A DNA stretch of 64,000 nt from contig JAHIRB010000007.1 of the NCBI GenBank assembly GCA_018818885.1, forward strand, positions 121,089 to 185,088. Reading direction: 5' to 3'. Shown here in pieces: positions 7,183 through 51,069 of this stretch. Source of the stretch: Patescibacteria group bacterium (GTDB lineage Bacteria > Patescibacteriota > Patescibacteriia > Buchananbacterales > SURF-54). A program made the position numbers and the translations under genes. Within the stretch, counting starts at the first letter, position 1. The number at the start of each line of letters is the position of its first letter. The notes beneath the pieces were generated by a model that saw nothing but the letters and a program-made list of their open reading frames with translations, was not told the DNA's origin and did not search any database.

Positions 7183-7971
7183 TTGGAGGTGATTGAATTG
7201 GCCGAAAAAAAGATTGTAAAAAATTCTGTGGTGATAGTAACAATCACAATGGTACGAGATCAGGAAGAATACAACAGAATGGTGTCAACTCATCGCTCAC
7301 TCTCACAGCTCGCATTAACCAATGACTGGAAAGTGGTAACCGTAAACCGACCAACCAATAGTACTTTCCAAAAAAGATTGGAATATGCATTTGAAGATTT
7401 CAATATTGAAGTCATCAAGTGCACAGAAGGTTCTGTCGGACTTCAGCTGGCCACTGCTTATGTTGAGGGCTCAAAAAGAGCTCAAGATATGGTTTTGTAT
7501 ACTGAAGGTGACAAAACCGATTTTGTTCCATTTATTGGAAAAATACTTGCTCAAGCAGCGGACCACGAACGGATATTCAACACGTCACCTGCAATGTTGG
7601 TGCCAGGCAGAATTAATATGGGTATATATTCTTGTACCCGGAAATCGCCAGAACGGATAACTAACCTCATCCAATCATTTTTGATTGGGACAAAGGGTGA
7701 TTATCAATATGGGCCGAAACTATTTGATCCAAAGATCATCTTGCCACACGAAAAAATAATTATGGATTATGTCAAGAAGCGACCTGGCTGGCAAGTAGCA
7801 ACATGGCTTCCAATTTTTTTAGCCATACGCTATCCTGGTCAAGTAATTCCCTGCCCAATCAACGTACAACCAATGAAAGGCGAAGACAAGAATTTCTTTA
7901 AAGATCTTCGATTTCGTTTCCTTACTCAATTGCGACAAGCAATTGTCGCAATGTGGGATGCGGCGCAATAA
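7183..7971 (+). CDS. Hypothetical protein (GC-richer than its neighbours); true start may be a downstream TTG/GTG
   Basis: 262-aa ORF on the opposite strand to the surrounding operon. Has its own promoter-like boxes and a terminator hairpin. No family recognised. Confidence 0.5.
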   Translation: MEVIELAEKKIVKNSVVIVTITMVRDQEEYNRMVSTHRSLSQLALTNDWKVVTVNRPTNSTFQKRLEYAFEDFNIEVIKCTEGSVGLQLATAYVEGSKRAQDMVLYTEGDKTDFVPFIGKILAQAADHERIFNTSPAMLVPGRINMGIYSCTRKSPERITNLIQSFLIGTKGDYQYGPKLFDPKIILPHEKIIMDYVKKRPGWQVATWLPIFLAIRYPGQVIPCPINVQPMKGEDKNFFKDLRFRFLTQLRQAIVAMWDAAQ

Positions 7972-29461: not shown

Positions 29462-32400
29462 TTATGAGGTGATTGCAGCACTAGAAGTTGCTTGTAATTT
29501 ACCACCGTTTTTCTTAGGCAACAAGTATCCATTGGTCCATTGAAGGGTTCTGGATGCTGTTGTAGATGATAAATTTTGTGTGACTGTTAGGTCACCCCAG
29601 ATAAAGTCTGCTTCACCTGTGCTAGCCTCTAAACCAGCAGTGGCATCATCAAGCTGTAGCATTGCTGCTGAATTTGGAATAACATCTGCAGCAGCTCCGT
29701 CACCAAGTAATGACACGCTAATAGATCCGTCGCCAGCTGAACAACTCTTATTGTCGTCGTTAGAGCTTGAACAATCTACTGTAGCTCTAAGAGTAAATGT
29801 TGTTTCAGTACCAGCAGCAACTCTATAAGGGACTACATCGTCTCTATTTGAATCAGGAGCTGTTCCGTCATCAGTAAAGAGGAATGATGCTATACCTTGA
29901 CCGCTTAAGTCACTAGCACCTGAATTTGGATATAAATCCCAAGTGGTAGTAGCAGCTACTGTTTCAGTTCCATCATAGAGATAAGGAGAAGAAACTGTAG
30001 AAACGGATGTTGCGAACAAGAAGCTTAACTTGTACAAGGCAATGTCACCTGCACTATCAGCTCTTACTGTTAATTTGTACAAATCGGTAACAGCTTGTCC
30101 AGAAGGCATACTTCCAGCAATTCCTGTGGTTTGTTCGTCTTCTGGTGTGATTGTAGGCACACTCTTGTAGACATAGTAGGAATTGAATGTTGGTACTTGT
30201 CCAAGAGTTACATCAGTACCTGATTCAGCACCTTTTGCATTTACATCTCCAACAGCATTAATCTTTAGCTGGAATCCTTGGCCAGAACTTCCCTTTGATC
30301 CGTTCTTTGCATCAACGTTAGATGTGTCTACTTTAAAGGTGTAGTCAGTACTTACGCTGTGTGGAACTACCAATGGATTACTAGTCATTTCTAGTAATTG
30401 AGTTACATTGGTTCCATCAGTAGCAGATGGCGTTCTTTGTTTAACTAATGTACTTCCATCATACAAGTATAACGAATCAATTTGATCCCAACCGCCAGAA
30501 TTAACTGCAGCGGCAGTAACATAGATAGATTCTATGTTAATGTCTTCGTACATTGCATCTGCTGTCATAACACCTACAGTAATACCATCAGTATTTCTTG
30601 GTAGTAATCCTGATTTAGGATTTGCAGCAGCTTTAACTAGTTCTAAGGTTCCAACTGCTACAATTGTTTGTGCAGTACCATGGCTCTGGATATAAGTTGG
30701 AGTAACGGTATTTCCAGTTGATGCGCCAGTAGCACTAACTGCGCCGTCTGCAATACCCATTTGGAATATGTCATCAGCTGCAGCGGAAGAATCAACATTT
30801 GCCTTACCTGTTAAGGTAACTTGTGTTCCTTTTGTAACAACTAATGTTTCCGACAAAGTATGAGTGGAAGTTGCAGGATTGGCATTACCTGCTAAGCCAG
30901 AAGTAGCGTCACTAGTAATTTCTAACAAATCATCACCATTGTAAAGTTCAATGTTTGATAACAAGTTAGTAAAACCAGTTGTTGAATCTACACGAACACC
31001 AATTTGTGAGACTCTAATATCTTCTGAAGATGCAGAAGCATCTAAGACGATATTAACAAAAGTATGTCCCAAAGTTCCGGCTACAATGGTTTGAACAATT
31101 GGATCTGGTGTAATGCTTACAGTTAAAGTGCCTGCTTTTACAGTATTGATAACTGATGACTGAACAGTAGCAGGTGTAGCAGTAACGGAATCTCCACTGA
31201 CTTCACCAGTTGCTGTAATCTGAGCAGGTACAACTTGCACTTGTATAGTGTCATTAAGATCAATATCAGTATTTACATCACCTTTAACAGTGTAAATGTT
31301 TTCTCCTACTGGAACTGTAATAGTATCAGTAGTGGTAGCACTTGCGTGATATACAGTTGTTGATTCAACAGTTTCGGTAGTACCTAGATCTTGTGGTCCA
31401 GCTACAACATTACCATCTGGATCGTAAATAGTTAGATTGGTAATATCTGTAGTACTTGAACCACTACCAGCAGTAGCTTGGGTTAATTTCACAATCCAAC
31501 CAATTGCTGTGATTTCTATTGGTTCACCTTTGGCAGTAAGCTTAAATGAACCTAATGTTTCTTGAGTTGAACCTTCACCAATATTTATTGTGCCAGTAGC
31601 ACTTGGAGCAACTTTTAATGTTCCTTGGCCAATGGTGTGTGCAGTACCATTAATTACAGGAGATGCTGCATTAGCACCACTGCCTGCAGTTAATGTAACG
31701 TAAACTGAATGATCTGCATCCCAAACTAAAATATCAGTAAAGTTTTTGATGTGTAAGTCTATGGTTCGAGTTGTTCCACCTGCAGCATCACCTCTGGCCA
31801 TATAAGATCTATTTTGTCCAGAAGTAATTGTTGGTTCAGATCCTTCAGCAAATGAATGGAAAACCTCTTTATTATCCATAGCAGATGTTTGCAACACTGC
31901 ACCATTTTGATCAACTAAGTCTATATTTTCTACATCAGAATCACCTGCAGAACCGTTTTGTGTCCATTTAATCTGTTTAACCTTTAACCCTGATGGGTTT
32001 GTGCTACTAGAACTGGAATTAGTAATCTTAACTTCTGTGAAATTAACATTTTCTTTTCCAATTTCTGGTGCACTGTCAGTTGATGGATTAGATGGGCCAG
32101 TACCTAAAGTACCAGCAGCAATAGTAACAGTTGCATTTAAGTTCTGGTAGTTACCAGTAATTGGCAAGGTACCAATTAACGAAGCACCAGCTTTTAAGGT
32201 CATGGATGCTAATGTTAGTGATGGAACTTCTCCAGCATAGCTAGCCATAAGTGCAAGTGTTGTCATGTTACCTGTTAAAGCCAATCTTTTAGTAGAACCA
32301 GCAGTAACTGTTACATCATCGTTCAAGGTTGATTGATGAGTAGCATTCAAACTTTTGTTAAGTCCAATTTGCTGGTTTGTTGTTCTGTCGATAACAGCGA

Positions 32401-33166
32401 TAGATGCGAAAGCACCGTCTTGTGCAACAGCACCGGTTCTTTCTATTACCATTGAATCAATGGTGATATCGCCATCGCTGGAAGCAGTACAATCAACATA
32501 AGTGAATGGGAATCTAGCTGCACCTGCTAAGGCAAGGCCACTAGCTGGTGTGTCTGCAGCTAAAGAACATGTTAATGATGTTCCAGAGCCTGACATAGAT
32601 AAATTCTTATCATCATTTATGCTGGTAGCGGCTGCTTTTACAGCATCGACGTCAAAGGCTGAAGCAGCTCCAATATTATCACCTGTGCCATAGTTTCCAA
32701 CATTAGAAACTACTACAGGTATGATCATACTTTCCCAATTAGCACCATATAGTGCTTCTGCTATTTCGGCAGAACCAATTTTACGTAGATTTCCACCGGC
32801 ATCAACAGCGTAAACTGCTGAACTAAATACTACCCATGGTACGTCGTTTGTTACTGTTTGAACCAATTTAACACCTGGTTTTGCAGTAACGTTTCCACCG
32901 ATTGGATAACTGTCAATTTCAGCATCACTCAAGGTCATGACTGAATCAAAGTTATCATACCAAGTAAAAAATTCTCGGTCAGCTGGGAAAGTGTACAATT
33001 TACCATCAGCGCCTAAGTAGAATACAGCAGATAAACCTGCTTTCTTAACCACATCGCCTGATTCTGCAGCAACTACGCTGAGAGGCATTGCGAATAGGCC
33101 AATTGACCATATAATTGTGGTCAATACAACGCTAACAGTAAAGGCTTTCTTAATAAATTTCGACAT
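29462..33166 (-). CDS. Large secreted Thr/Ser/Gly/Ala-rich cell-surface protein (S-layer/adhesin-like), 1234 aa
   Basis: N-terminal signal peptide (MSKFIKKAFTVSVVLTTIIWSIGLFAMPLSVVAAES). Low-complexity beta-rich repeats and many N-x-S/T sequons. GC-richer codon usage, which follows from Ala/Gly/Thr content. Confidence 0.7.
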   Translation of the reverse strand: MSKFIKKAFTVSVVLTTIIWSIGLFAMPLSVVAAESGDVVKKAGLSAVFYLGADGKLYTFPADREFFTWYDNFDSVMTLSDAEIDSYPIGGNVTAKPGVKLVQTVTNDVPWVVFSSAVYAVDAGGNLRKIGSAEIAEALYGANWESMIIPVVVSNVGNYGTGDNIGAASAFDVDAVKAAATSINDDKNLSMSGSGTSLTCSLAADTPASGLALAGAARFPFTYVDCTASSDGDITIDSMVIERTGAVAQDGAFASIAVIDRTTNQQIGLNKSLNATHQSTLNDDVTVTAGSTKRLALTGNMTTLALMASYAGEVPSLTLASMTLKAGASLIGTLPITGNYQNLNATVTIAAGTLGTGPSNPSTDSAPEIGKENVNFTEVKITNSSSSSTNPSGLKVKQIKWTQNGSAGDSDVENIDLVDQNGAVLQTSAMDNKEVFHSFAEGSEPTITSGQNRSYMARGDAAGGTTRTIDLHIKNFTDILVWDADHSVYVTLTAGSGANAASPVINGTAHTIGQGTLKVAPSATGTINIGEGSTQETLGSFKLTAKGEPIEITAIGWIVKLTQATAGSGSSTTDITNLTIYDPDGNVVAGPQDLGTTETVESTTVYHASATTTDTITVPVGENIYTVKGDVNTDIDLNDTIQVQVVPAQITATGEVSGDSVTATPATVQSSVINTVKAGTLTVSITPDPIVQTIVAGTLGHTFVNIVLDASASSEDIRVSQIGVRVDSTTGFTNLLSNIELYNGDDLLEITSDATSGLAGNANPATSTHTLSETLVVTKGTQVTLTGKANVDSSAAADDIFQMGIADGAVSATGASTGNTVTPTYIQSHGTAQTIVAVGTLELVKAAANPKSGLLPRNTDGITVGVMTADAMYEDINIESIYVTAAAVNSGGWDQIDSLYLYDGSTLVKQRTPSATDGTNVTQLLEMTSNPLVVPHSVSTDYTFKVDTSNVDAKNGSKGSSGQGFQLKINAVGDVNAKGAESGTDVTLGQVPTFNSYYVYKSVPTITPEDEQTTGIAGSMPSGQAVTDLYKLTVRADSAGDIALYKLSFLFATSVSTVSSPYLYDGTETVAATTTWDLYPNSGASDLSGQGIASFLFTDDGTAPDSNRDDVVPYRVAAGTETTFTLRATVDCSSSNDDNKSCSAGDGSISVSLLGDGAAADVIPNSAAMLQLDDATAGLEASTGEADFIWGDLTVTQNLSSTTASRTLQWTNGYLLPKKNGGKLQATSSAAITS

Positions 33167-33630: not shown

Positions 33631-34779
33631 CTATTCAATAATATCCTCTGTTGTTTCTAGTAATGTTTCTTGCGTTGCATTAATTGTGCTGGTATTTGAT
33701 TGAATAGAAACTTGTTCAACTTTGTTTTCTACATTAAAATCTGAAACTTCCTCACTTTCTTCTGTGTTAGTATCATCATTTTCTTCTAAGTTTACATCTT
33801 CTTGATTTGATGTAGCTTCTTCTTCATCAATTGCTTGGTTTTGTTCTGTTATCAATTGCTCAACTAAAGTCTGGCCTTGAGCAATTTGCACTGCTGTTAA
33901 ATCAAATTCTCCATTGGCTAGTGAATTTTTAGCATCATCTAGTGCTTTTTGAGCTGCTTCTAGAATCTCGCCATCCTCTAATTCTTTTATTTTTTGTTCT
34001 AAATTATTAATTTTACTTTGTATTAATTCAATTACTTCTTCTTCCTCTTGAGTTTCACCCTGTGAATAATTATTTAAAGCAATCCTAAAAGCTGATTCTG
34101 ATGTATTTTCTGCTGTATTTACTGCATCATCCATGGCTTTTTCTACCTCTTTTTTAACATTATCGGGTAATTTATCCTTATTTTTATTTAATGTTTTAGC
34201 AAATTCTGTTGCTTGAGAATCTATTGCTCTAGCTAAAGAAAATACTGATTTCTTTTGTTGGTCTAGATTATTAATATGATCGTTTAAAGATTCTACGTCT
34301 GATTTGAATCTTTTTGTAATTTCTGAAATTGTATCTTTTTGTAAGTCTTCTGGTCTTAAAATTGCCATTTTATCTAGTTCGTCTACTCTGTTTTTAGCAA
34401 ATTCCATTCTTAGTTCTGCTTTTTTCTCGTTATCTCTTATAATTGAAACCTGGGTTTTTTCCATAGCAATTTTAAGGTCGTAAAGATTATCTCCAGGCAA
34501 ACTATAAAAGGCAGCATTAACTACTAAACTGGATCCTACAAATAAACCTAAAACCAACAATATTGCTACTGTTGGTTGAAAAACATGAAATTTAGCAGCT
34601 TGAGCAGTTGCAGAAAAGAACCCAAAAAATGAGGTTGCTGGCTGGTATGCACGCTGATCTTGAGAAATCTCAGATATTAAAATATCCCGGAAAGAATCCT
34701 TCCACTCCTTGCGGGGCTGTATTTGGTTCAATAATTTAATTTTATTGACCATTTTTTGATTGTGAGTTTTTTGACTCAT
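33631..34779 (-). CDS. Putative membrane-anchored anti-sigma factor (single TM, acidic coiled-coil ectodomain)
   Basis: Overlaps the ECF sigma gene by 38 bp. Cytoplasmic N-terminus, TM helix (VAILLVLGLFVGSSLVV), acidic coiled-coil C-terminus. Confidence 0.45.
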   Translation of the reverse strand: MSQKTHNQKMVNKIKLLNQIQPRKEWKDSFRDILISEISQDQRAYQPATSFFGFFSATAQAAKFHVFQPTVAILLVLGLFVGSSLVVNAAFYSLPGDNLYDLKIAMEKTQVSIIRDNEKKAELRMEFAKNRVDELDKMAILRPEDLQKDTISEITKRFKSDVESLNDHINNLDQQKKSVFSLARAIDSQATEFAKTLNKNKDKLPDNVKKEVEKAMDDAVNTAENTSESAFRIALNNYSQGETQEEEEVIELIQSKINNLEQKIKELEDGEILEAAQKALDDAKNSLANGEFDLTAVQIAQGQTLVEQLITEQNQAIDEEEATSNQEDVNLEENDDTNTEESEEVSDFNVENKVEQVSIQSNTSTINATQETLLETTEDIIE

Positions 34780-35371
34780 CGATAGTATCTTTTAGTACTT
34801 TTAGTGCTCTGTGAATTAGAACTCTGGTAGCACCATTAGATTTATCTAGTATTTTAGATATTTCTTTATTTGATAGTTCATCAACGAATTTCAGAATTAA
34901 TACTTCGCGAAATTCATCTTTTAATTTACGTAAATGTGCTTCAATGTTTTCAATTTCACTACTAATTGCCACTTTTTCTAGAAAACTTTGCTGTCTTGAA
35001 TCTTCTACTAATTTTAATGATTCTGTATCTGCTAAAATCTCTCTTTGACTGGTTCTGTAGTAATCTATCACTATATTTCGTGCTGATTGGTATAATAAGG
35101 CGTTGAGATTGGAAACTTCGCGTTTATCTGGCTCGTTCATGTATTGCCAGGTTTTCAAGAATACTTCTGCACATAGATCCTCAGCTGTTTCGTGGTTAGA
35201 AACCTTAAAAAAAATAAAGCGATATATTTTATCTACGTACAAATCGTAAATTTCCCCAAAGGCTTCGGAATCGCCGTTTTGAGCCCTTACAAGAAGTAAC
35301 TTTTGCTTAAATATAGATGCATTCATTGTATTAGACGAAGTATCGTTAATTTTGTTACAGAATAGGTTCAA
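34742..35371 (-). CDS. RNA polymerase sigma-70 family ECF sigma factor
   Basis: Region 2 (DLYVDKIYRFIFFKV...AEDLCAEVFLKTW) and region 4 HTH (LSNKEISKILDKSNGATRVLIHRALKVLK). Confidence 0.8.
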   Translation of the reverse strand: MNLFCNKINDTSSNTMNASIFKQKLLLVRAQNGDSEAFGEIYDLYVDKIYRFIFFKVSNHETAEDLCAEVFLKTWQYMNEPDKREVSNLNALLYQSARNIVIDYYRTSQREILADTESLKLVEDSRQQSFLEKVAISSEIENIEAHLRKLKDEFREVLILKFVDELSNKEISKILDKSNGATRVLIHRALKVLKDTIDESKNSQSKNGQ

Positions 35372-35623
35372 CTATAACAACTTTTTTAATTATTGTCAAT
35401 TTAATGGATAGTTTTGGATATTTTGAGTGTGATATTTCTTTTTTGAAGTTTCCCACTATTGATTGCTGTATTTTATTGAGTTATAATGAAGTTAGAACTT
35501 TTGTCTACGCTAGAGTGGACAAAAGTGAATATTTCGATAATTAACTGCGATACAGCGATAAGAGCGATAGAGTTATTATTCTATATTGCTTTATAACTAT
35601 ATCGCTTTATCGCCTCACTGACT

Positions 35624-35899
35624 ATGCCTAATAACAAAACAATTAGACTTTCTGTTACTGAAGCGGCTAGAATATTTGGTGTTGACCAAAAGACTATCAG
35701 AAGAGCAATAAAAAACCAAGATTTGCGCTATATTGTTGTTATGGGTAGATATAAGATTAATTTTGAAAGCTTACTAAAATGGTCACAGAAAAAACCTCAA
35801 ACAAAAAATAAGCTTGAAAATGATGGAATTGGTAAATATGTGGATAAATGGAAGATTAGAAGTACTCATTATAGCCCTAATCCTCCCAAAAAAGACTAA
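35624..35899 (+). CDS. Small helix-turn-helix DNA-binding protein (excisionase/MerR-like HTH_17)
   Basis: LSVTEAARIFGVDQKTIRRAIKNQDLRY HTH; 91 aa. Immediately upstream of the ncRNA-like region and the RT. Confidence 0.6.
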   Translation: MPNNKTIRLSVTEAARIFGVDQKTIRRAIKNQDLRYIVVMGRYKINFESLLKWSQKKPQTKNKLENDGIGKYVDKWKIRSTHYSPNPPKKD

Positions 35900-36284
35900 T
35901 CGCCGAAGGCTCTCCTCGCTCGACGCCAGCCTCGACGTCTAGCCGGGAAAGTTAAAGCGGGCGTCATCGCCGAGGCAGGCTAAATAACTAAATAAACTAA
36001 AATGACATCTTGTATGTTGTTTTTTGTTTGACTAAATGAATGTGAAGTTTTAAACTAATAATAAGCTGCTTTTATTGTCTTGCTTGATCTGCTTGTCTTA
36101 CAGGCAAGACCGGTCATCTGTGAACGGATGGCTGAATAAACGTAGGCGCTTGAGATGGCCTCGTATGTTTCCAGTTGATTGAAACCACTTAGTAAGCGCG
36201 TTAAACAACGAACGCACTCACAGAGCAGCCCGGGGGGAAACACATTCCCCCCATTTTTTTTGACCTTTAACAAGGAGGCAATCA
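35900..36284 (+). ncRNA. Candidate retron non-coding RNA (msr/msd) region
   Basis: 385 bp with no ORF on the plus strand, GC-richer than the genome, several stem-loops (CGACGCC/GGCGTC; GTCTT-acaggc-AAGAC; GGGGGGAA-acaca-TTCCCCCC plus T-run). Sits directly 5' of a retron-type RT on the same strand. Boundaries and a1/a2 repeats not resolved. Confidence 0.35.
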
Positions 36285-37316
36285 ATGCAGAAAAGCCGAA
36301 AGGATGCAGTGGAAATTCTAGCAAATCTTATGAGATTGCAATCAGATTTTATTTTTGATGCATTGAAAAATAGAAACTATCAACAAATTTTGATTCCTAA
36401 AAGATCTGGCGATGTAAGAAAATTGCACGCACCCGGTGAAGAGTTAAAACTTGTACAGGAAGTAATCCTACAATTTCTTTACCGATGGAAAGTCGATGCA
36501 CGTCAGTTTGGTTTCGTGTTAGGCGGTTCACCAATCAGGAATGCAAAATATCACATTAGAAATGAATTTTACGTTCCGCACTGGGTTCTAAAGCTTGATT
36601 TGGAAAACGCGTTTCCATCAGTTACTTCAACTGTTCTTAGGAAGGAGTACACCCGAGTATTTAACCCAGAAACATTCAAGGAGCTATCAGGAATAGACGA
36701 AAAACAATTTACTGCATTCATCCAACTGATGCTTGATTTAACAACTTACCGAGAGCGACTACCTCAAGGGTCGCCTTGTTCTCCCTACTTGTTGAATTTG
36801 GTATTAGTCTGGACAGGTGTAACAAAAGGTGTTTTGGAGTATTGTGAAAAAAAAGGACTACGTGCTTCCTTGTATGGTGATGATTTCACTATATCTGCCA
36901 AAACAAGTAACATGTGGTTTTCTAAGACATTCTTTAGAAAAATCAATTCAGCGGTTTCACGTAGTGGGTGTCTCAGACTAAATCACGACAAGACTCATCT
37001 AATATGCAGCAGAAACTCCGCGCCAATAATTACTGGCGTAAAAATTACCGAAAGCCACGACAATGGAGCAAAATTAACTCTCACCCAGAGCACACTAAAT
37101 CATTGGAGAGGAGTGATTCATCGAGTTACAGAAATTCTCTACTGGAATAATCGCCTACCAAGGCTGGAACAAGACGGCGTAACATTCAACCAAGCACTCG
37201 GTTATGTCAATTGGATTGAAGATGTCTATAGAGAAAGTGAGGTTCCGCTATCGGTTAGAAAACCAATTAAAAGTTTTAAAGTGCAATCATCAAGATTCGA
37301 TCGTAGGAGAGGTTAG
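36285..37316 (+). CDS. Retron-type reverse transcriptase
   Basis: RT motifs ILIPKRSGDVRKLHAP (1), LDLENAF (2), LPQGSPCSPYLLNLVL (QGxxxSP), LYGDDFTI (YxDD), LNHDKTHL. Retron hallmarks FGFVLGGSPIRNAKYH (NAxxH) and IITGVKI (xTG). AAGGAGG RBS at 36271-36277. No maturase or endonuclease domain. Confidence 0.8.
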   Translation: MQKSRKDAVEILANLMRLQSDFIFDALKNRNYQQILIPKRSGDVRKLHAPGEELKLVQEVILQFLYRWKVDARQFGFVLGGSPIRNAKYHIRNEFYVPHWVLKLDLENAFPSVTSTVLRKEYTRVFNPETFKELSGIDEKQFTAFIQLMLDLTTYRERLPQGSPCSPYLLNLVLVWTGVTKGVLEYCEKKGLRASLYGDDFTISAKTSNMWFSKTFFRKINSAVSRSGCLRLNHDKTHLICSRNSAPIITGVKITESHDNGAKLTLTQSTLNHWRGVIHRVTEILYWNNRLPRLEQDGVTFNQALGYVNWIEDVYRESEVPLSVRKPIKSFKVQSSRFDRRRG

Positions 37317-37398
37317 GATAAAAAAATCCAAAGCCTCTCCTTTTTCATATAAAAAACAGGGGCGGAAAATCCGTTTGGACTCCGTCCCTTTTTTTATA

Positions 37399-37932
37399 CT
37401 ACGCTGCCAACAACTTGACTGAGGGCATTTCACTTATCACGCTGAGTGTTTTTTGCACCTCCTCAGACTCAAGGGGTACTTCTACCCCAAAGCGTAATAT
37501 GTGTCTTCTTTTTCTCTGTGAATGAACGATTACTAAATTGACTTCTTGATCTTTGAATATATTGGCGATATCAGCCAATATTCCCGGCTTGTCTTCCACA
37601 ATCTCTACTGCGATTGAACACTCGGCTGAAAGATCGACCATGAGCTCGTTGAGGTTTTCGCAAAGCTCGAAGGCTTCAACAACCTGTTTGTGCCCCAGGT
37701 ATTCAACTCCGAAATTGAAGTACTCAATAAACTCGCTTTGATCCCCTGTTTTGATCATTCGCTCGATGATCTCTTTAAATCGCTGAGCTTCCTCTATGAG
37801 AATTTCGAGCATTTTGATACTGCCAGGATTTGCTGTTTGGATATCTGCGTAGAGCAAAGCGTCCTGGGCGGAAATCCTCCCGGTTGCAACATTCATTAGC
37901 CGATATATTGGATTTGAAAGCTTGTCGGCCAA
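37399..37932 (-). CDS. ACT-domain-containing protein (start uncertain)
   Basis: C-terminal ACT-like segment (AVEIVEDKPGILADIANIFKDQEVNLVIVHS). Overlaps the 3' end of the next minus-strand ORF, so one of the two start/stop calls is wrong. Confidence 0.45.
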   Translation of the reverse strand: MADKLSNPIYRLMNVATGRISAQDALLYADIQTANPGSIKMLEILIEEAQRFKEIIERMIKTGDQSEFIEYFNFGVEYLGHKQVVEAFELCENLNELMVDLSAECSIAVEIVEDKPGILADIANIFKDQEVNLVIVHSQRKRRHILRFGVEVPLESEEVQKTLSVISEMPSVKLLAA

Positions 37933-38233
37933 ACCAGGATCCCAACCATACTATCAGAATTATGGAAAAGCATATTATTGAAAATATGCCTACAAGTGAT
38001 GGTAGGTTGCTTGCCATACCAATGGATAGAAACAATATCCAAAGAAACACACACATGGCTGTTATGGCCGTTGCACCGAACCAGTAACTGTTCCAGTTAT
38101 CATCCAGCCTGTCTGAGGTATACCTGGAAAGTGGAATTTCTTCTTGCGCTGATTTCTTCGAATTACTTTTTTGCTTTCTCATCTCTATTGCTCCTTGTTT
38201 TTGAATTAGCGTTAAATCAATTACAGCTTTCAA
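37775..38233 (-). CDS. Hypothetical small membrane protein (2 TM); boundaries uncertain
   Basis: TM segments (ITAMCVFLWILFLSI, IFSIICFSIILIVWL). C-terminal third overlaps the ACT ORF in another frame. Confidence 0.3.
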   Translation of the reverse strand: MKAVIDLTLIQKQGAIEMRKQKSNSKKSAQEEIPLSRYTSDRLDDNWNSYWFGATAITAMCVFLWILFLSIGMASNLPSLVGIFSIICFSIILIVWLGSWFGRQAFKSNISANECCNREDFRPGRFALRRYPNSKSWQYQNARNSHRGSSAI

Positions 38234-38239
38234 TAACCA

Positions 38240-38713
38240 CTATTCCAGACCCAAAATAAAGCTGATGATCTTTCCTATTACAGCAAGTATTGGCCAGAGT
38301 ATGTGTATCCAAATCCACGGAACAATTACAAATATTAACCATGCAAGCAAGGCAAGGAATATATAGCCAAAAATAAAGATTGGCCAAAATATTACAGACA
38401 ATGCTTTTCCCGCTTTATATTCCCAATCTTTTATATCTTCTTTTTCATATCTTACGATATTACTGTCTTTTTCATTTAGTAGAAATGCTAAGTCGTCTGG
38501 GAAAGGAGAAATTTTATCTAATATATTTAAACAAAATATATGTGGCTTCAGGATAAGCCAATCGTTTACGTCACCCATGGTTAATAATCTTCCAATCGCA
38601 ATGTAAATTATAATTGCGAGAAGTAAATTACATTTTGTGATCAGAGGTTTTAGTTTTAACATTTCAATTTTGATTTTCATATCCATTTCCTTTTTAATGA
38701 CGCGCTGACACAA
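38240..38713 (-). CDS. Hypothetical membrane protein
   Basis: 157 aa with 3-4 predicted TM helices; AT-rich like the host genome. Confidence 0.45.
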   Translation of the reverse strand: MCQRVIKKEMDMKIKIEMLKLKPLITKCNLLLAIIIYIAIGRLLTMGDVNDWLILKPHIFCLNILDKISPFPDDLAFLLNEKDSNIVRYEKEDIKDWEYKAGKALSVIFWPIFIFGYIFLALLAWLIFVIVPWIWIHILWPILAVIGKIISFILGLE

Positions 38714-38733
38714 GACCTAGTTTTAACGAACAA

Positions 38734-38876
38734 TTGTCAAAAAATTATTCTTGACTTAGTATTATACTATACGTTACAAAACTTGTCAATGATTTTGACA
38801 TAATAATTCAGTAATTATGCTTAAATTAGAGCAAAATAATTACATACTAAAAAAATGTTGTCAAAATACTTGACAA
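38734..38876 (+). promoter_or_regulatory. trmB promoter region with three TTGTCAA-N5/10-TTGACA(A) palindromic operator-like sites
   Basis: Sites at 38734-38756, 38783-38800 and 38858-38876 (the last is a perfect TTGTCAA-aatac-TTGACAA). The last TTGACA also serves as the -35 box: 17-nt spacer, TATAAT at about 38892-38897, ATG at 38907, so the mRNA is near-leaderless. Confidence 0.4.
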
Positions 38877-38906
38877 AATTTCTCAGATGATATATAATAA
38901 ATATGT

Positions 38907-39638
38907 ATGGATATAGAAACAACACTACAACAATTTGGCCTTGATAATAAGGGGGTAAAGGTCTATTTAGCCCTATTGCAACTAGGCAAAGCCTCTGTTT
39001 TAAATATCGCAGCAAAAGCTGGAATAAAACGTCCTACTGCATATTTGATTTTAGATAATTTGATAGAAAAAGGCTTAGCTTCTAAAATACCTAGAAAAGG
39101 AAAAACCACCTTTTATGCGGAAGACCCAAAAAAATTAGTACAAATTTTAGAAAAAAGACAAAAACAAGTCGAAAAAATAATCCCCGACTTATTATCTATC
39201 TATAATATAAAAGCTGATAAACCAAAGGTTTTACTTTATGAAGGTAAGGAAGGTGTTGAACAAGTATATACAACAATAATGAACTCAAAAGAAATTTGGT
39301 GGTTTGGTAGCTTGTTAACTGTTTACGAAAATTTTAAAAATATGTTTGACTTATTTGAAGAAAGAATTAACAGTAATAAAATTAAAATGGCCAAGGATTT
39401 TATTGGTAATAGCCAATGGGAAATAAACTATGCAAAAAATAACCAGAGAGCTAATCACGAAATACGTATTAGTCCTCTACCAGTTGAGATCGATTTTTCT
39501 TTATTTGAAGATAAAGTAGCAATATTATCTCACCAAGATAATTTATATGCTGTTGTGATACAAGATAAAAAAATAGTTGAAAGTTTTAAAAGTTTATATG
39601 AATTAGCATGGTCAAGCGTTGAAAAGGTAAAAAAATAA
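38907..39638 (+). CDS. trmB: TrmB-family transcriptional regulator
   Basis: N-terminal winged HTH (KVYLALLQLGKASVLNIAAKAGIKRPTAYLILDNLIEKGLA) and TrmB-like C-terminal domain. Confidence 0.7.
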   Translation: MDIETTLQQFGLDNKGVKVYLALLQLGKASVLNIAAKAGIKRPTAYLILDNLIEKGLASKIPRKGKTTFYAEDPKKLVQILEKRQKQVEKIIPDLLSIYNIKADKPKVLLYEGKEGVEQVYTTIMNSKEIWWFGSLLTVYENFKNMFDLFEERINSNKIKMAKDFIGNSQWEINYAKNNQRANHEIRISPLPVEIDFSLFEDKVAILSHQDNLYAVVIQDKKIVESFKSLYELAWSSVEKVKK

Positions 39639-39644
39639 ATTAAC

Positions 39645-39688
39645 AAAACAAAAATACCTCTTAATTGTATGAGGTATTTTTGTTTTTA
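39645..39688. terminator. Bidirectional rho-independent terminator between convergent genes
   Basis: AAAAATACCTC-ttaattgtat-GAGGTATTTTT, with T/A runs on both sides. Confidence 0.65.
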
Positions 39689-39696
39689 TATAAATT

Positions 39697-40839
39697 CTAT
39701 TTTGCTTCGCCCAAAAACGCTTCTACTACTCTTTCTTGTTCCTCTCTTATCACCACAAGCTCAATATCATCCCCTATTCTGTATTCTTGTATAAGTTGAG
39801 TTAATGTATTCTTGTTATCTACTGGCACTCCATCAACAGAAATAATAATATCATCAATTTTGAGTTCTGCTTGATATGCTGGAGAAGTACGAGATGGATC
39901 TTGATAAATTAATGCTCCGTTTTTTTGTTGTGTTGTATTAGTATCTGATAGATCTATATACTTTAGCCCTAATCCAGGCCTTTGGATTTCTCCTTGTCTT
40001 AAAACACCCAAGATAACACTAAAAAAATAATTAGTTGGTATTACTTTTTGCAATTCCCCTATTTTGGTTTTTTCTAAAACACCAATTACTTCTCCGCCTA
40101 AATTAACCACTGCGGAACCTAAATAAGCATTGGCTAGCTCATCTTTAAGTAAAATATATTTATAAAAAATTTCTGTAGACCTAATAGCAGTTTTGCCATC
40201 GTCTTTAAAGTTTAGATTTTCTATGTTGGTTATTGTACTTTGTCCAACAGAGTTCATCACAACAACTGTTTGGCCAATAGTTGATTCTTTCCAATCACCC
40301 AAAACTACTGGGGTTAAATTATGTGCATTAATTTTTATAAACGATACATTGGTTAAAGTGTCAGAGACTATTTCATCGATATCATGAGTAGTTTTGTCTA
40401 AAAGCACTGTTAATTGTTTTGAACCATAATTTTTTATTGTTGAGCTTTGGCAGGTTAACCAGCCATCACTAGTTAAAACAAAACAATTGGCTAATAGATC
40501 GTCTTCCAAATAAATATTTTTAGCGATATCACTAGTTTGAGATTTTTTTAAATATAATCCTGCCAAACTTAACCCAATTTTTTGAGACAGATTTTCTACT
40601 ACTATATCTTGTTGTGTACCAGAAAAACTTCTTATTCTGCGAAGTTCAGGAATATCAGCAACATTGGTGTTTATGTTGTAAGCATAGGTGTATGGTTCTA
40701 AGTATGGATCAATATAAACATGGCTGACCATTTGTCCTACAACACCTGCGGAAAATCCAAAAATTGTAGCAATAATTACAATTCTCACTATCATTGCATC
40801 GCTACTTGGTTTAAATATTTTTGGTATTTTTAAATCCAT
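39697..40839 (-). CDS. HtrA/DegP-like trypsin-fold serine protease with C-terminal PDZ domain, membrane-anchored
   Basis: N-terminal TM. Protease-like core with GSAVVNLGGEVIGV (GNSGGPL-like). PDZ-like C-terminus (GALIYQ...DDIIISVDGVPV). Confidence 0.5.
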   Translation of the reverse strand: MDLKIPKIFKPSSDAMIVRIVIIATIFGFSAGVVGQMVSHVYIDPYLEPYTYAYNINTNVADIPELRRIRSFSGTQQDIVVENLSQKIGLSLAGLYLKKSQTSDIAKNIYLEDDLLANCFVLTSDGWLTCQSSTIKNYGSKQLTVLLDKTTHDIDEIVSDTLTNVSFIKINAHNLTPVVLGDWKESTIGQTVVVMNSVGQSTITNIENLNFKDDGKTAIRSTEIFYKYILLKDELANAYLGSAVVNLGGEVIGVLEKTKIGELQKVIPTNYFFSVILGVLRQGEIQRPGLGLKYIDLSDTNTTQQKNGALIYQDPSRTSPAYQAELKIDDIIISVDGVPVDNKNTLTQLIQEYRIGDDIELVVIREEQERVVEAFLGEAK

Positions 40840-50640: not shown

Positions 50641-51069
50641 TTATGGGTATTGCTGACGGCAAGTATCTTCACACTCAAATGCTTTTTGACCATCTGCTTC
50701 TTGCTCGCATTTTTCTACACAAGACTTACAACCCATAAACATATGGCTTTCTGCAAACTCGCATTCTGAACCAACTATTTCGCATTGAGCAAATTGACGG
50801 CAGAAATCCCCTAATTTATAAACTGCCGTACAAGCATCTGGTGGGTTTGGACCACATACTATATCTAAACCATGACAATTTTCTATGGCGCAGTTTGGTG
50901 GTGGCGCAGATGGTACTCCGTGTTTTACCCAATTGCCGTTGATATTAAGCCAAGTATCTTCTTCACCTCTCACAAACATCATAATCAACACAAGGCCAAC
51001 AAGAGCGATAGCGATAATGCCGATTGTGACAGCGATTTTTTTCACTTGTGGTGCGTTTGTCGAACTCAT
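50641..51069 (-). CDS. Cysteine-rich membrane-anchored small protein
   Basis: N-terminal TM plus a 16-Cys extracytoplasmic domain (CAIENCHGLDIVCGPNPPDACTAVYKLGDFCRQFAQCEIVGSECEF...). Confidence 0.5.
   Translation of the reverse strand: MSSTNAPQVKKIAVTIGIIAIALVGLVLIMMFVRGEEDTWLNINGNWVKHGVPSAPPPNCAIENCHGLDIVCGPNPPDACTAVYKLGDFCRQFAQCEIVGSECEFAESHMFMGCKSCVEKCEQEADGQKAFECEDTCRQQYP

What the first reader, a model, noticed from the sequence alone, without database searches (positions are those of the whole stretch)
35890..38240. GC-richer island boundaries coincide with the RT module
From the end of the HTH gene to about 38240 the sequence is visibly GC-richer than the flanking AT-rich genome (GC-rich codons in the RT and ACT genes; GC-rich intergenic hairpins). 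Directly outside, the genes revert to the host AT-rich style (38240-38713 membrane protein; 35372-35623 leader). This argues for horizontal acquisition of the retron module as a unit. An imperfect direct repeat ATCGCCGA(A)GGC occurs at 35900-35911 and 35967-35977 near the left border.
Basis: seen in the sequence. Interest (0 to 1): 0.5.

Follow-up and report, generated by a model that had tools for sequence, protein, structure and literature searches.

The report
Composite GC-rich insert with retron
The GC-rich stretch is real and lies inside a 3.8-kb insertion that related genomes lack, but it is a patchwork rather than one transferred unit, and its core is a retron-type reverse transcriptase with its own conserved RNA, from a family seen so far almost only in Patescibacteria and with no partner toxin gene.

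Summary
Observation confirmed. Window 35890-38240 is 41.0% GC against 33.0% overall, in the top 0.24% of same-size windows, with a sharp left edge at the HTH stop codon.

Interpretation partly supported. Syntenic contigs from related Patescibacteria show a variable slot between a conserved host HTH gene and a PDZ-protease gene:
- Empty in distant relatives.
- Filled by purA in two closer ones.
- Filled by a same-family ncRNA and RT in the closest relatives.

In the window the insert runs 35900-39700, further than the GC-rich part, and it is a mosaic:
- A unique ~83-nt GC-rich segment.
- A retron-type ncRNA and RT unit (36028-37346).
- A truncated tyrA-like PDH_C/ACT ORF overlapped by a 2-TM ORF. 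This is the most foreign part (GC3 0.49).
- AT-rich membrane-protein and TrmB genes.

The HTH gene is a host gene, not a retron partner. The reported direct repeat is not att-like.

The RT belongs to a family of about 46 clusters. Each of the nine loci inspected has a promoter, an a1/a2 closing stem with compensatory changes, a family-specific hairpin, a variable template region and a terminator-like hairpin before the RT. No effector gene is conserved across nine independent contexts. That point is the interesting residue.

The parts
35624..35899 (+). Host HTH_17 (excisionase-type) DNA-binding gene. It marks the left border of the variable slot and is not part of the retron.
   Evidence: Pfam HTH_17 4.7e-9. 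GC3 0.23. 84-90% aa identity in L090, L091, L092, L093 and L178, and 62-70% in L179-L181, whether or not an RT follows.
35900..35982 (.). Unique GC-rich (~56%) segment of ~83 nt inserted directly after the HTH stop codon.
   Evidence: Absent from L090, L091 and L178 at this position. No second copy in the window or in 182 loci. Its fold is not better than shuffles, z -0.97.
35983..36027 (+). HTH 3' UTR and weak terminator hairpin with T-run, homologous to the same region in relatives.
   Evidence: Conserved blocks CTAAATAAC and CTTGTTTTTTTGTTG in alignment A6. Hairpin in the fold.
36028..36056 (+). Promoter-like site of the ncRNA (TTGACT-17-TAAACT).
   Evidence: Promoter scan. An equivalent TTGAC(T/A)-17-TAnnnT precedes the ncRNA in L086, L088, L089, L091 and L182.
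36062..36261 (+). Retron-type ncRNA. Its elements are a1 (36064-36069), hairpin 1 (36076-36109), family-specific hairpin 2 (36110-36133), a variable msd-like region with three short hairpins (36134-36223), a2 (36224-36229), and a terminator-like hairpin (36232-36252) followed by T8.
   Evidence: Fold z -2.97. The same architecture appears in the minimum-energy folds of 12 family ncRNAs. Pair counts: 94.4% paired against 75.5% in shuffles, and all 8 a1/a2 pairs have compensatory changes. The hairpin-2 motif occurs only upstream of family RTs in 1.68 Mb. Terminator scan. No Rfam match.
36285..37316 (+). Retron-type reverse transcriptase, 343 aa, with RBS AAGGAGG at 36272-36278.
   Evidence: RVT_1 1.5e-16. 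PADLOC RT_II-A 1.3e-36, III-A 8e-36, VI 1.7e-32. NCBIfam retron_St85_RT 119.5 bits, below the cutoff of 235. NAKYH (86-90), ITG (249-251) and YGDD (197-200) fall on invariant or near-invariant family columns.
37306..37396 (.). RT terminator hairpin (37306-37345, about 90% conserved with L091), then a bidirectional terminator (37360-37396) shared with the convergent ACT ORF.
   Evidence: Read from the sequence.
37399..37932 (-). Truncated tyrA-like ORF: the last two thirds of the PDH_C dimerisation domain plus an ACT domain, with no NAD-binding domain. It is the most compositionally foreign piece.
   Evidence: PDH_C 2.7e-7 covering profile positions 37-101 of 102, ACT 4e-6. NCBIfam PRK08818 positions 208-349 of 373. 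Residues 5-81 align to H. influenzae TyrA 204-276, PDB 2pv7. GC3 0.49. No PADLOC hit.
37775..38233 (-). ORF with two predicted TM helices. It overlaps the start of the ACT ORF by 120-157 nt in another frame, which suggests a frameshifted fusion or a decaying gene.
   Evidence: Three-frame translation. TM prediction. No family hit. A conceptual fusion gains no further domain.
38240..38713 (-). AT-rich membrane protein gene (about 4 TM). It lies inside the insert but has host-like composition.
   Evidence: GC 0.32. Tetranucleotide r 0.96 for 38240-39696. Absent from the syntenic slot of L090, L179 and L180.
38907..39638 (+). TrmB-family regulator gene, divergent from mem157 with two perfect TTGACA-17-TATAAT promoters (38761-38898). 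It lies inside the insert.
   Evidence: Pfam TrmB 9e-14. Promoters. 38% identical to a TrmB gene 1.2 kb downstream of the family RT in L182.
39697..40839 (-). Host PDZ-protease-like gene. It marks the right border of the variable slot.
   Evidence: 54% aa identity in L090, and 42% and 34% in L179 and L180, where it directly follows the HTH gene.

Best explanation
The GC-rich block is the compositionally deviant part of a 3.8-kb lineage-specific insert (35900-39700). The insert sits in a variable slot between two conserved host genes, HTH_17 and a PDZ protease, of a Patescibacteria genome. It was assembled in more than one step.

Core unit. The core is a two-part retron-type unit (36028-37346). 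A promoter drives a ~200-nt ncRNA whose ends pair (a1/a2) around two 5' hairpins and a variable template region. A terminator-like hairpin with a T-run separates the ncRNA from a 343-aa retron-type RT.

Inferred mechanism, by analogy with characterised retrons:
- The terminator keeps the ncRNA abundant and lets only read-through transcripts encode the RT.
- The RT recognises the conserved hairpin 2.
- The RT primes from a 2'-OH of a G next to the a1/a2 duplex.
- The RT copies the variable region into msDNA.

Age of the unit. The same unit sits at the same junction in the closest relatives, so it predates the window's lineage.

Other parts. The adjacent tyrA-like ACT fragment and the overlapping 2-TM ORF are a separate piece, apparently decaying, from a GC-richer source. 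They contribute most of the third-position GC anomaly.

Sources of the GC excess: (a) GC-rich RNA stems, (b) an RT gene that stays moderately GC-enriched in this family, and (c) a foreign gene remnant.

No effector gene accompanies this RT family. What the msDNA/RT complex does is therefore not shown. My best guess is phage defence with an effector encoded elsewhere, or a cDNA-based output.
For: Composition.

Slot variability:
- L179 and L180: HTH directly followed by PDZ.
- L090 and L178: purA in the slot.
- L091 and L092: ncRNA and RT in the slot.
- Homology breakpoints at 35899 and about 39710.

Shared junctions between window and L091: the promoter abuts the HTH terminator in both, and the RT terminator is about 90% conserved. 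Sequence diverges after it.

Retron identity:
- PADLOC, NCBIfam and PDB hits are to retron RTs at 1e-28 to 1e-36, against 1e-20 for group II RTs.
- The NAxxH, (I/V)TG and YxDD motifs are present. Motif definitions are from Mestre et al. 2020, PMC7736814.
- 12 ncRNAs fold to the same architecture.
- Pairing statistics: 94.4% paired, 0 of 500 shuffles as high, slid registers 23-50%.
- The hairpin-2 motif is exclusive to family loci.

ACT ORF as a tyrA remnant.

No conserved neighbour of the RT.
Against: - The L091 contig ends 200 bp after the RT, so absence of ACT further downstream is not shown.
- RT identity between window and L091 is only 52% against 87-90% for sigma and HTH. Allele replacement at a hot spot, rather than vertical descent, is possible.
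- The a1/a2 register and the excised core alignment were chosen by eye, which favours the structure.
- The msd region has three short hairpins, not the single long stem typical of retrons.
- No msDNA, transcript or branch-point evidence exists.
- TrmB genes lie near the RT in 3 of 9 independent contexts, and one member (L182) has a co-oriented SMC-like ATPase upstream. 'No effector' may therefore be too strong.
Confidence: 0.65

Rival explanations
1. One horizontally acquired retron island (ncRNA, RT and an ACT effector) arrived as a single GC-rich unit bounded at 35890 and 38240, with the short repeat as an integration scar.
For: The sharp GC step at 35900 and the return to host GC near 38240. 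The region is absent from L090, L178, L179 and L180.
Against: - The same-site RT in L091/L092 has a different downstream sequence.
- The indel extends to about 39700.
- The ACT ORF is a truncated tyrA-like fragment, has no PADLOC hit, and is not next to the RT in any of the other eight contexts.
- The repeat copies are both at the left border.
- There is no integrase or tRNA.
Confidence: 0.08
2. The whole 3.8-kb insert (RT unit, membrane proteins and TrmB regulator) is one functional supermodule. The membrane proteins would act as retron effectors, as in type IV retrons, with TrmB as regulator.
For: - mem157 and TrmB are inside the indel.
- A TrmB gene lies within 5 kb of the family RT in window, L086 and L182. 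Window and L182 TrmB proteins are 38% identical, similar to the 37% identity of their RTs.
- Small membrane ORFs lie between the RT and TrmB in L182.
Against: - No TrmB or comparable membrane gene was called in the stretches recovered around the RT (up to 5-6 kb each side, less where the contig is short) in L082, L088, L089, L174, L175 and L176.
- The membrane proteins share no detectable similarity.
- mem157 and TrmB have host-like composition, unlike the RT.
- The orientations differ between loci.
Confidence: 0.15
3. The GC excess of the ncRNA and RT part is intrinsic: structural RNA stems and RT amino-acid composition maintained by selection. It says nothing about recent transfer. Only the ACT/2-TM piece is foreign.
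For: - The RT exceeds the host mean at GC1 (0.465) and GC2 (0.375), not only at GC3.
- The L091 RT has GC3 0.34-0.39 against 0.22-0.26 for its flanks, despite 48% aa divergence.
- RT GC exceeds locus GC by at least 0.02 in 7 of 11 family loci.
- Upstream ncRNA regions are GC-richer than their loci in 6 of the 7 compared.
Against: - The RT is absent from the slot in L090, L178, L179 and L180, so it was gained at some point.
- In L085, L088 and L089 the RT is not GC-richer than its locus.
Confidence: 0.3
4. Assembly chimera: the GC-rich block was joined to this contig by misassembly of a metagenome.
For: The source is a metagenome-assembled contig.
Against: - The left junction (HTH terminator to ncRNA promoter to RT) recurs in independent JGI contigs L091 and L092.
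- The RT is carried by two contigs in different assemblies.
- The genes are intact, with matching terminators.
Confidence: 0.02

Closest known systems
Retrons (msr/msd ncRNA plus RT), with RTs closest to Ec86 and St85/Sen2 (type II-A), type III-A and type VI
   Same: - The RT has the NAxxH, (I/V)TG and YxDD motifs.
- The best database hits are retron RTs (PADLOC 1e-32 to 1e-36; PDB Ec86, Ec67, Kva2 and Ec78 at 1e-28 to 1e-34).
- An upstream same-strand ncRNA is closed by terminal inverted repeats, with 5' hairpins and a variable 3' region.
   Different: - The RT scores below the curated cutoff of the only near model (119.5 against 235 bits) and is equidistant from several types.
- No conserved effector gene or fused domain is present.
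- The msd region has several short hairpins instead of one long stem.
- An intrinsic-terminator-like hairpin with a T-run lies between the ncRNA and the RT in all members.
- The family was recovered so far only from metagenomic contigs. The source-named members are Patescibacteria, where DGRs are the dominant RT class (PMC8632793).
- The ncRNA is not in Rfam.
Type VI retrons (RT plus a small Cro/C1 HTH protein plus a small accessory protein; Mestre et al. 2020)
   Same: A 91-aa HTH protein lies directly upstream on the same strand. PADLOC RT_VI is among the top hits (1.7e-32).
   Different: - The HTH is of the HTH_17 (excisionase) type, not Cro/C1.
- It is conserved at 62-90% in relatives that lack the RT.
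- It is absent next to the other family RTs.
- No 75-79-aa accessory gene is present.
RT plus ncRNA-only defence systems (DRT2, DRT9 and similar)
   Same: The gene content is just an RT and an upstream structured ncRNA, with no separate effector.
   Different: The RT is retron-type, not of the UG/Abi class (NCBIfam Drt2 15.9 bits against a cutoff of 390). The ncRNA has retron-like a1/a2 closure.
Genomic or defence islands at integration hot spots
   Same: The slot is variable between conserved flanking genes, its content differs among relatives (empty, purA, retron), and its composition is deviant.
   Different: It has no integrase, no att repeats and no tRNA at this site. Part of the content is stably inherited at the same site in diverged relatives (window and L091; L088 and L089).

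Membership tests
Retron | RT with the NAXXH motif between RT2 and RT3 (H most conserved) | tested here: met
   N86-A-K-Y-H90. H90 is invariant and A87 is at least 90% conserved in the 33-sequence family alignment A1. Motif definition from PMC7736814.
Retron | VTG triplet in RT7 / region Y (G most conserved) | tested here: met
   I249-T250-G251. G251 is invariant and T250 is at least 90% conserved. The family consensus is ITG.
Retron | Catalytic YxDD | tested here: met
   Y197-G-D199-D200. Both aspartates are invariant.
Retron | Adjacent same-strand ncRNA whose terminal inverted repeats (a1/a2) pair | tested here: met
   The closing stem appears in all 12 minimum-energy folds. 64 of 66 cells are paired in register, against 14-31 when shifted. 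All 8 pairs show both-side changes, and 0 of 500 shuffles reach the observed values. Caveat: the register was chosen by eye.
Retron | msr region with 1-3 hairpins | tested here: met
   Hairpin 1 is variable. Hairpin 2 is conserved (10 bp, two covarying pairs).
Retron | msd region with one long stable stem-loop (10-50 bp) | tested here: not met
   Window 36134-36223 folds into three short hairpins of 5-9 bp. Other members also show several short hairpins.
Retron | Conserved branching G next to a1 | tested here: inconclusive
   An unpaired G follows a1 directly in 7 of 11 ncRNAs. In the window and L091 the nearest unpaired G is 5-7 nt away.
Retron | Production of msDNA | not testable with these tools
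   Needs expression and nucleic-acid analysis.
Retron | Cognate effector gene or fused effector domain (tripartite system) | tested here: not met
   There is no shared neighbour in nine independent contexts: window/L091, L082, L085, L086, L088/L089, L174, L175, L176 and L182. The RT is 343 aa and has no extra domain. L182 alone has a co-oriented AAA_23/SMC_N ATPase.
Retron St85 family (NCBIfam NF038233) | Score above the curated cutoff | tested here: not met
   119.5 bits against a cutoff of 235.
Type VI retron | Cro/C1-type HTH partner specifically linked to the RT | tested here: not met
   The HTH is HTH_17. It is present without the RT in L090 and L178-L181.
Integrative genomic island | Absent from the same site in related genomes | tested here: met
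   L179 and L180 have an empty site. L090 and L178 have purA.
Integrative genomic island | Flanking direct repeats (att), an integrase, or a tRNA target | tested here: not met
   No border repeats. No integrase domain. No tRNA in the 64-kb window.
Diversity-generating retroelement | Template and variable repeat pair near the RT | tested here: not met
   No repeat of the RT-flanking non-coding DNA elsewhere in the window beyond chance. The RT's best hits are retron models.

The most novel reading that the evidence does not exclude
This is a retron lineage, found so far almost only in Patescibacteria, that is genuinely two-component: ncRNA plus RT, no effector gene. It carries a built-in terminator between ncRNA and RT, and it is maintained at fixed chromosomal sites through long divergence (window and L091; L088 and L089). 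That would imply an output different from the tripartite toxin-sequestering retrons. The output could be a cDNA-based mechanism analogous to the RT-and-ncRNA-only DRT systems, or a non-defence role in these reduced genomes.
Probability: 0.3. Interest if true: 0.65.

Novelty: new variant of a known kind. Interest (0 to 1): 0.42.

Why it matters
As an island call, the finding is ordinary and partly wrong in its details. Its value lies in what the comparison exposed.

First, compositional edges do not define the inserted unit here. One GC-rich block combines an older resident retroelement, a foreign gene remnant and structured RNA. The true indel also contains host-like AT-rich genes.

Second, the RT belongs to a retron-type family that I did not find described. 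It has its own conserved ncRNA, which is absent from Rfam, and it occurs in Patescibacteria, a group in which retrons are rare and DGRs dominate (PMC8632793). No linked effector is apparent.

If the lack of an effector holds, the family offers a compact RT and ncRNA pair whose biological output is unknown. It could be tested directly by expression, both for function and as a compact msDNA producer.

Tried and rejected
Searches that found nothing useful:
- Word-indexed protein search with the RT returned only the RT itself plus hits at 30% identity or less. The profile version missed most family members.
- The genome-contig scan used a generic retron motif and returned only distant retrons of 35% identity or less.
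- A C-terminal family alignment was too variable to search with.
- A narrower motif (AHKITGVV) found nothing in JGI metagenomes.
- IMG/VR holds no close family member, best about 35%.
- The insert has no DNA match in phage or plasmid collections.
- Rfam gave no match at permissive thresholds.

Analyses that failed:
- MAFFT on full-length ncRNAs aligned hairpin 2 but not a1/a2. I therefore counted pairs on an excised core alignment.
- The per-sequence shuffle test of a1/a2 was individually weak. Only the summed score was significant.

Ideas considered and rejected:
- att repeats at the borders.
- The GC-rich ~83-nt segment as a repeated element or as a stable structure.
- A DGR.
- DRT2 membership.
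- ACT as a defence effector.
- An N-terminal PDH remnant in the 2-TM ORF region.
- Fused effector domains in longer family hits. P0045 carries a second RVT_1 stretch. P0086 is a distant kinase fusion.
- ECF sigma adjacency as synteny. L086 sigma is only 31% identical to the window's.


Full report
**Source and observation.** The window is part of a 200-kb metagenomic contig. The RT and the neighbouring sigma factor are named by NCBI as coming from a 'Patescibacteria group bacterium'. The window is 33.0% GC overall. The reported interval 35890-38240 is 41.0% GC, a value reached by only 0.24% of same-length windows.

The left edge is abrupt: GC is 0.30 in 35800-35899 and 0.56 in 35900-35999. The right edge lies near 38200-38300.

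Third-position GC separates the parts:
- ORFs of the window: mean 0.26, sd 0.05.
- HTH gene: 0.23.
- RT: 0.33.
- 2-TM ORF: 0.38.
- ACT ORF: 0.49.

The only other GC-rich stretch, the 1234-aa gene at 29462-33166, is GC-rich at codon positions 1 and 2 only. It has a 62%-identical orthologue in a relative, so it is native.

Tetranucleotide usage of the island is atypical: r is 0.836, in the lowest 4.9% of windows, and all lower windows lie in that native gene. The GC-normalised dinucleotide signature is ordinary.

**The direct repeat.** The repeat exists one base off from the stated coordinates, at 35899-35910 and 35966-35976. Both copies lie inside one ~83-nt GC-rich segment at the left border. 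No counterpart occurs near 38240 or 39700. It is not an att pair.

**Synteny.** I found relatives through the flanking sigma factor and the HTH protein.

| Locus | Identity to window | Slot content after HTH |
|---|---|---|
| L179, L180 | HTH 70% and 66% | PDZ-protease gene directly: the empty site |
| L181 | HTH 62% | Different arrangement (NusG, L11, L1) |
| L090 | sigma 82%, HTH 87% | purA |
| L178 | HTH 84% | purA |
| L091, L092 | sigma 87%, HTH 90% | Same-family ncRNA and RT |

DNA homology between the window and these relatives ends exactly at 35899 and resumes at about 39710. The insert is therefore 35900-39700. It also contains the AT-rich mem157 and TrmB genes, whose composition is host-like (tetranucleotide r 0.96).

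The HTH gene is conserved with or without the RT. It is a host gene, not a retron component.

The HTH 3' UTR and terminator (35983-36027) are conserved in L090, L091 and L178. The window has a unique ~83-nt GC-rich insertion directly after the stop codon. That segment has no other copy and no significant fold.

**Not one unit.** Window and L091 share both junctions of the ncRNA and RT unit. The ncRNA promoter abuts the T-run of the HTH terminator in both, and the RT terminator hairpin is about 90% conserved. Directly after that hairpin the sequences differ. The 200 bp available in L091 do not encode the ACT C-terminus.

The RT proteins are only 52% identical, and the L091 copy is frameshifted. 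Other proteins in these genomes diverge as much: the PDZ protein and three neighbouring genes are 47-58% identical between window and L090. Vertical descent is therefore plausible, although allele replacement is not excluded.

The L091 RT is as GC-enriched over its flanks (GC3 0.34-0.39 against 0.22-0.26) as the window's RT. That part of the signal is therefore persistent rather than a fresh transfer mark.

A second pair of diverged relatives, L088 and L089, also keep the RT at one site, between tRNA-Leu and an LTD-domain gene. Their RTs are 47% identical.

**The ACT gene.** The ORF at 37399-37932 matches only the last two thirds of the prephenate-dehydrogenase dimerisation domain plus an ACT domain. 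It matches NCBIfam PRK08818 over positions 208-349 of 373. Residues 5-81 align to H. influenzae TyrA residues 204-276.

The NAD-binding half is missing. Upstream, in another frame and overlapping by 120-157 nt, is an ORF with two TM helices. Neither ORF hits PADLOC, and neither recurs beside other family RTs. I read this as a truncated tyrA remnant, possibly fused or frameshifted, from a GC-richer source. That reading is an inference.

**The RT and its family.** The RT hits retron models best:
- PADLOC RT_II-A 1.3e-36, III-A 8e-36, VI 1.7e-32.
- NCBIfam retron_St85 at 119.5 bits, below its cutoff of 235.
- Solved Ec86, Ec67, Kva2 and Ec78 RTs at 1e-28 to 1e-34, against 1e-20 for group II RTs.

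It carries the retron signatures NAxxH, (I/V)TG and YxDD on invariant family columns. The definitions of the first two come from PMC7736814.

An exhaustive HMMER search found 46 clusters with E below 1e-30, at roughly 30-42% identity for the full-length members and about 340-430 aa. The only source-named members are Patescibacteria and Candidatus Buchananbacteria. No close member was found in IMG/VR or among the retron loci returned from GTDB representatives.

**The ncRNA.** Upstream of the RT, every locus inspected has a non-coding gap of about 325-735 bp where the upstream neighbour is on the contig. Twelve ncRNA copies from ten loci (nine independent contexts plus the same-site pairs; L176 has two copies in tandem) each fold on their own into the same architecture:
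- A closing a1/a2 stem.
- A variable hairpin 1.
- A conserved hairpin 2, GGTYRTCTG-loop-YRGAYGGC.
- A variable region with several short hairpins.
- Directly after a2, a G-rich hairpin followed by a T-run, 20-40 nt before the RT ribosome-binding site.

In the window these features are:
- Promoter, 36028-36056, and terminator, 36232-36252 plus T8.
- a1, 36064-36069.
- Hairpin 2, 36110-36133.
- a2, 36224-36229.

In register, 64 of 66 a1/a2 cells pair, against 14-31 in shifted registers.

I also counted pairs on an excised core alignment, A5:
- 94.4% of cells pair, against 75.5% in shuffles (0 of 500 as high).
- All eight a1/a2 pairs and two hairpin-2 pairs change on both sides.
- Slid registers give 23-50%.

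Caveat: I chose the anchors by eye, which favours the structure.

The hairpin-2 motif occurs nowhere else in 1.68 Mb of fetched loci, which include about 160 other retron-type loci. Rfam has no match.

Two features depart from the textbook retron. The msd region lacks a single long stem, and the branching G cannot be fixed from sequence.

**No conserved effector.** The neighbours of the RT across nine independent contexts are:

| Locus | Neighbouring genes |
|---|---|
| window, L091 | ECF sigma and HTH |
| L082 | DnaK |
| L085 | ClpP |
| L086 | ECF sigma and an ArsR-type HTH |
| L088, L089 | tRNA-Leu and LTD-domain proteins |
| L174 | MCP and HD |
| L175 | MGMT-like and ThiI |
| L176 | MscS-like and YfbR |
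| L182 | An AAA_23/SMC_N ATPase plus a 172-aa ORF |

None is shared across contexts.

The RT has no extra domain. The profile aligns to Ec86 over almost its whole length. Longer hits are an RT-RT fusion or a distant kinase fusion.

Two weak recurrences deserve a statistical test:
- A TrmB-family gene lies within 5 kb of the RT in window, L086 and L182. The window and L182 TrmB proteins are 38% identical.
- An ECF sigma gene is divergent from the RT in window and L086.

**Mechanism.** Shown from sequence and comparison:
- A promoter.
- A conserved, covarying ncRNA.
- A terminator-like element.
- An intact retron-type RT with catalytic residues.

Inferred from established retron biology (PMC7736814):
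- The RT binds the conserved msr hairpin.
- It primes on a 2'-OH of a G next to the a1/a2 duplex.
- It copies the variable region into msDNA.

My own inferences:
- The terminator sets a high ratio of ncRNA to RT mRNA.
- The downstream function is probably defence, with a trans-encoded or absent effector.

**Verdict.** The GC island is real and marks inserted DNA. It is a mosaic whose compositional edges do not coincide with the insertion, and the proposed module (HTH, RT, ACT) is not a module.

The finding as stated is of modest interest. The by-product, a retron-type family with its own ncRNA, recovered so far almost only from Patescibacteria and with no evident effector, is a new variant of a known kind and worth a direct test.

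Noticed in passing
L176 4450-5000 (also L177): Two tandem ncRNA copies precede one family RT. Each has its own promoter-like AT-rich leader, a different a1/a2 sequence, a different distal msd, the same hairpin 2 and its own terminator.
   Followed up: partly
window 38907-39638; L086 870-1610; L182 7480-8229: A TrmB-family regulator lies within 5 kb of the family RT in 3 of 9 independent contexts. The window and L182 TrmB proteins are 38% identical, about the same as their RTs. This may be a functional link or may be chance.
   Followed up: partly
L182 1571-4474: One family member (Candidatus Buchananbacteria) has a co-oriented 788-aa AAA_23/SMC_N ATPase and a 172-aa ORF directly upstream of the ncRNA and RT. 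This is reminiscent of type I retron or Septu-like effectors.
   Followed up: no
window 34742-35371; L086 5072-5656: An ECF sigma factor gene is divergent from the ncRNA and RT in two unrelated contexts. The two sigma proteins are only 31% identical, so this is not simple synteny.
   Followed up: partly
window 37775-37932: The 2-TM ORF and the tyrA-like ACT ORF overlap by 120-157 nt in different frames. A single frameshift near 37930-37950 would give a membrane-anchored PDH_C/ACT protein of about 260 aa.
   Followed up: partly
window 35900-35982; L091 about 75-105: A unique GC-rich segment sits after the HTH stop in the window. L091 has a perfect GC-rich palindrome (GTAGGCGAGACGTCGACGTCTCGCCTAC) downstream of its RT that shares TCGACGTCT with the window segment. 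These may be small GC-rich palindromic elements flanking the retron units.
   Followed up: no
L090 6862-8154; L178 2205-2855: In two relatives the same slot holds purA, with GC 0.43 and GC3 0.36, above the 0.36 GC of the L090 contig. The two purA copies are only 54% identical. The slot seems to collect foreign or metabolic genes repeatedly.
   Followed up: partly
L091 736-779: The same-site RT of the closest relative is split by a 1-nt frameshift just before the LPQGAPSSPYLLN motif. This is either a pseudogene or an assembly error.
   Followed up: partly
L088 60-135; L089 1-135: A tRNA-Leu gene on the opposite strand lies directly upstream of the ncRNA and RT unit in two related loci. L089 also has a partial duplicate of the tRNA 5' part and a GC-rich palindrome.
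   Followed up: no
window 29462-33166: A 1234-aa Ala/Gly/Thr-rich surface-type protein gene is the strongest compositional outlier of the window (tetranucleotide r about 0.5). It is nevertheless native: GC3 is 0.22, and orthologues are 62% identical in L090 and 40% in L179.
   Followed up: partly
window 38760-38899: Two perfect consensus promoters (TTGACA-17-TATAAT) face away from each other between mem157 and TrmB. They lie inside a 41-nt imperfect inverted repeat, which may be a TrmB operator.
   Followed up: no
window 7183-7971 (+), 50641-51069 (-), 61149-61520 (-): Three further ORFs have raised GC (0.41-0.43; GC3 0.31-0.40) and no Pfam hit. The first is the lone plus-strand ORF in a long run of minus-strand genes.
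   Followed up: partly
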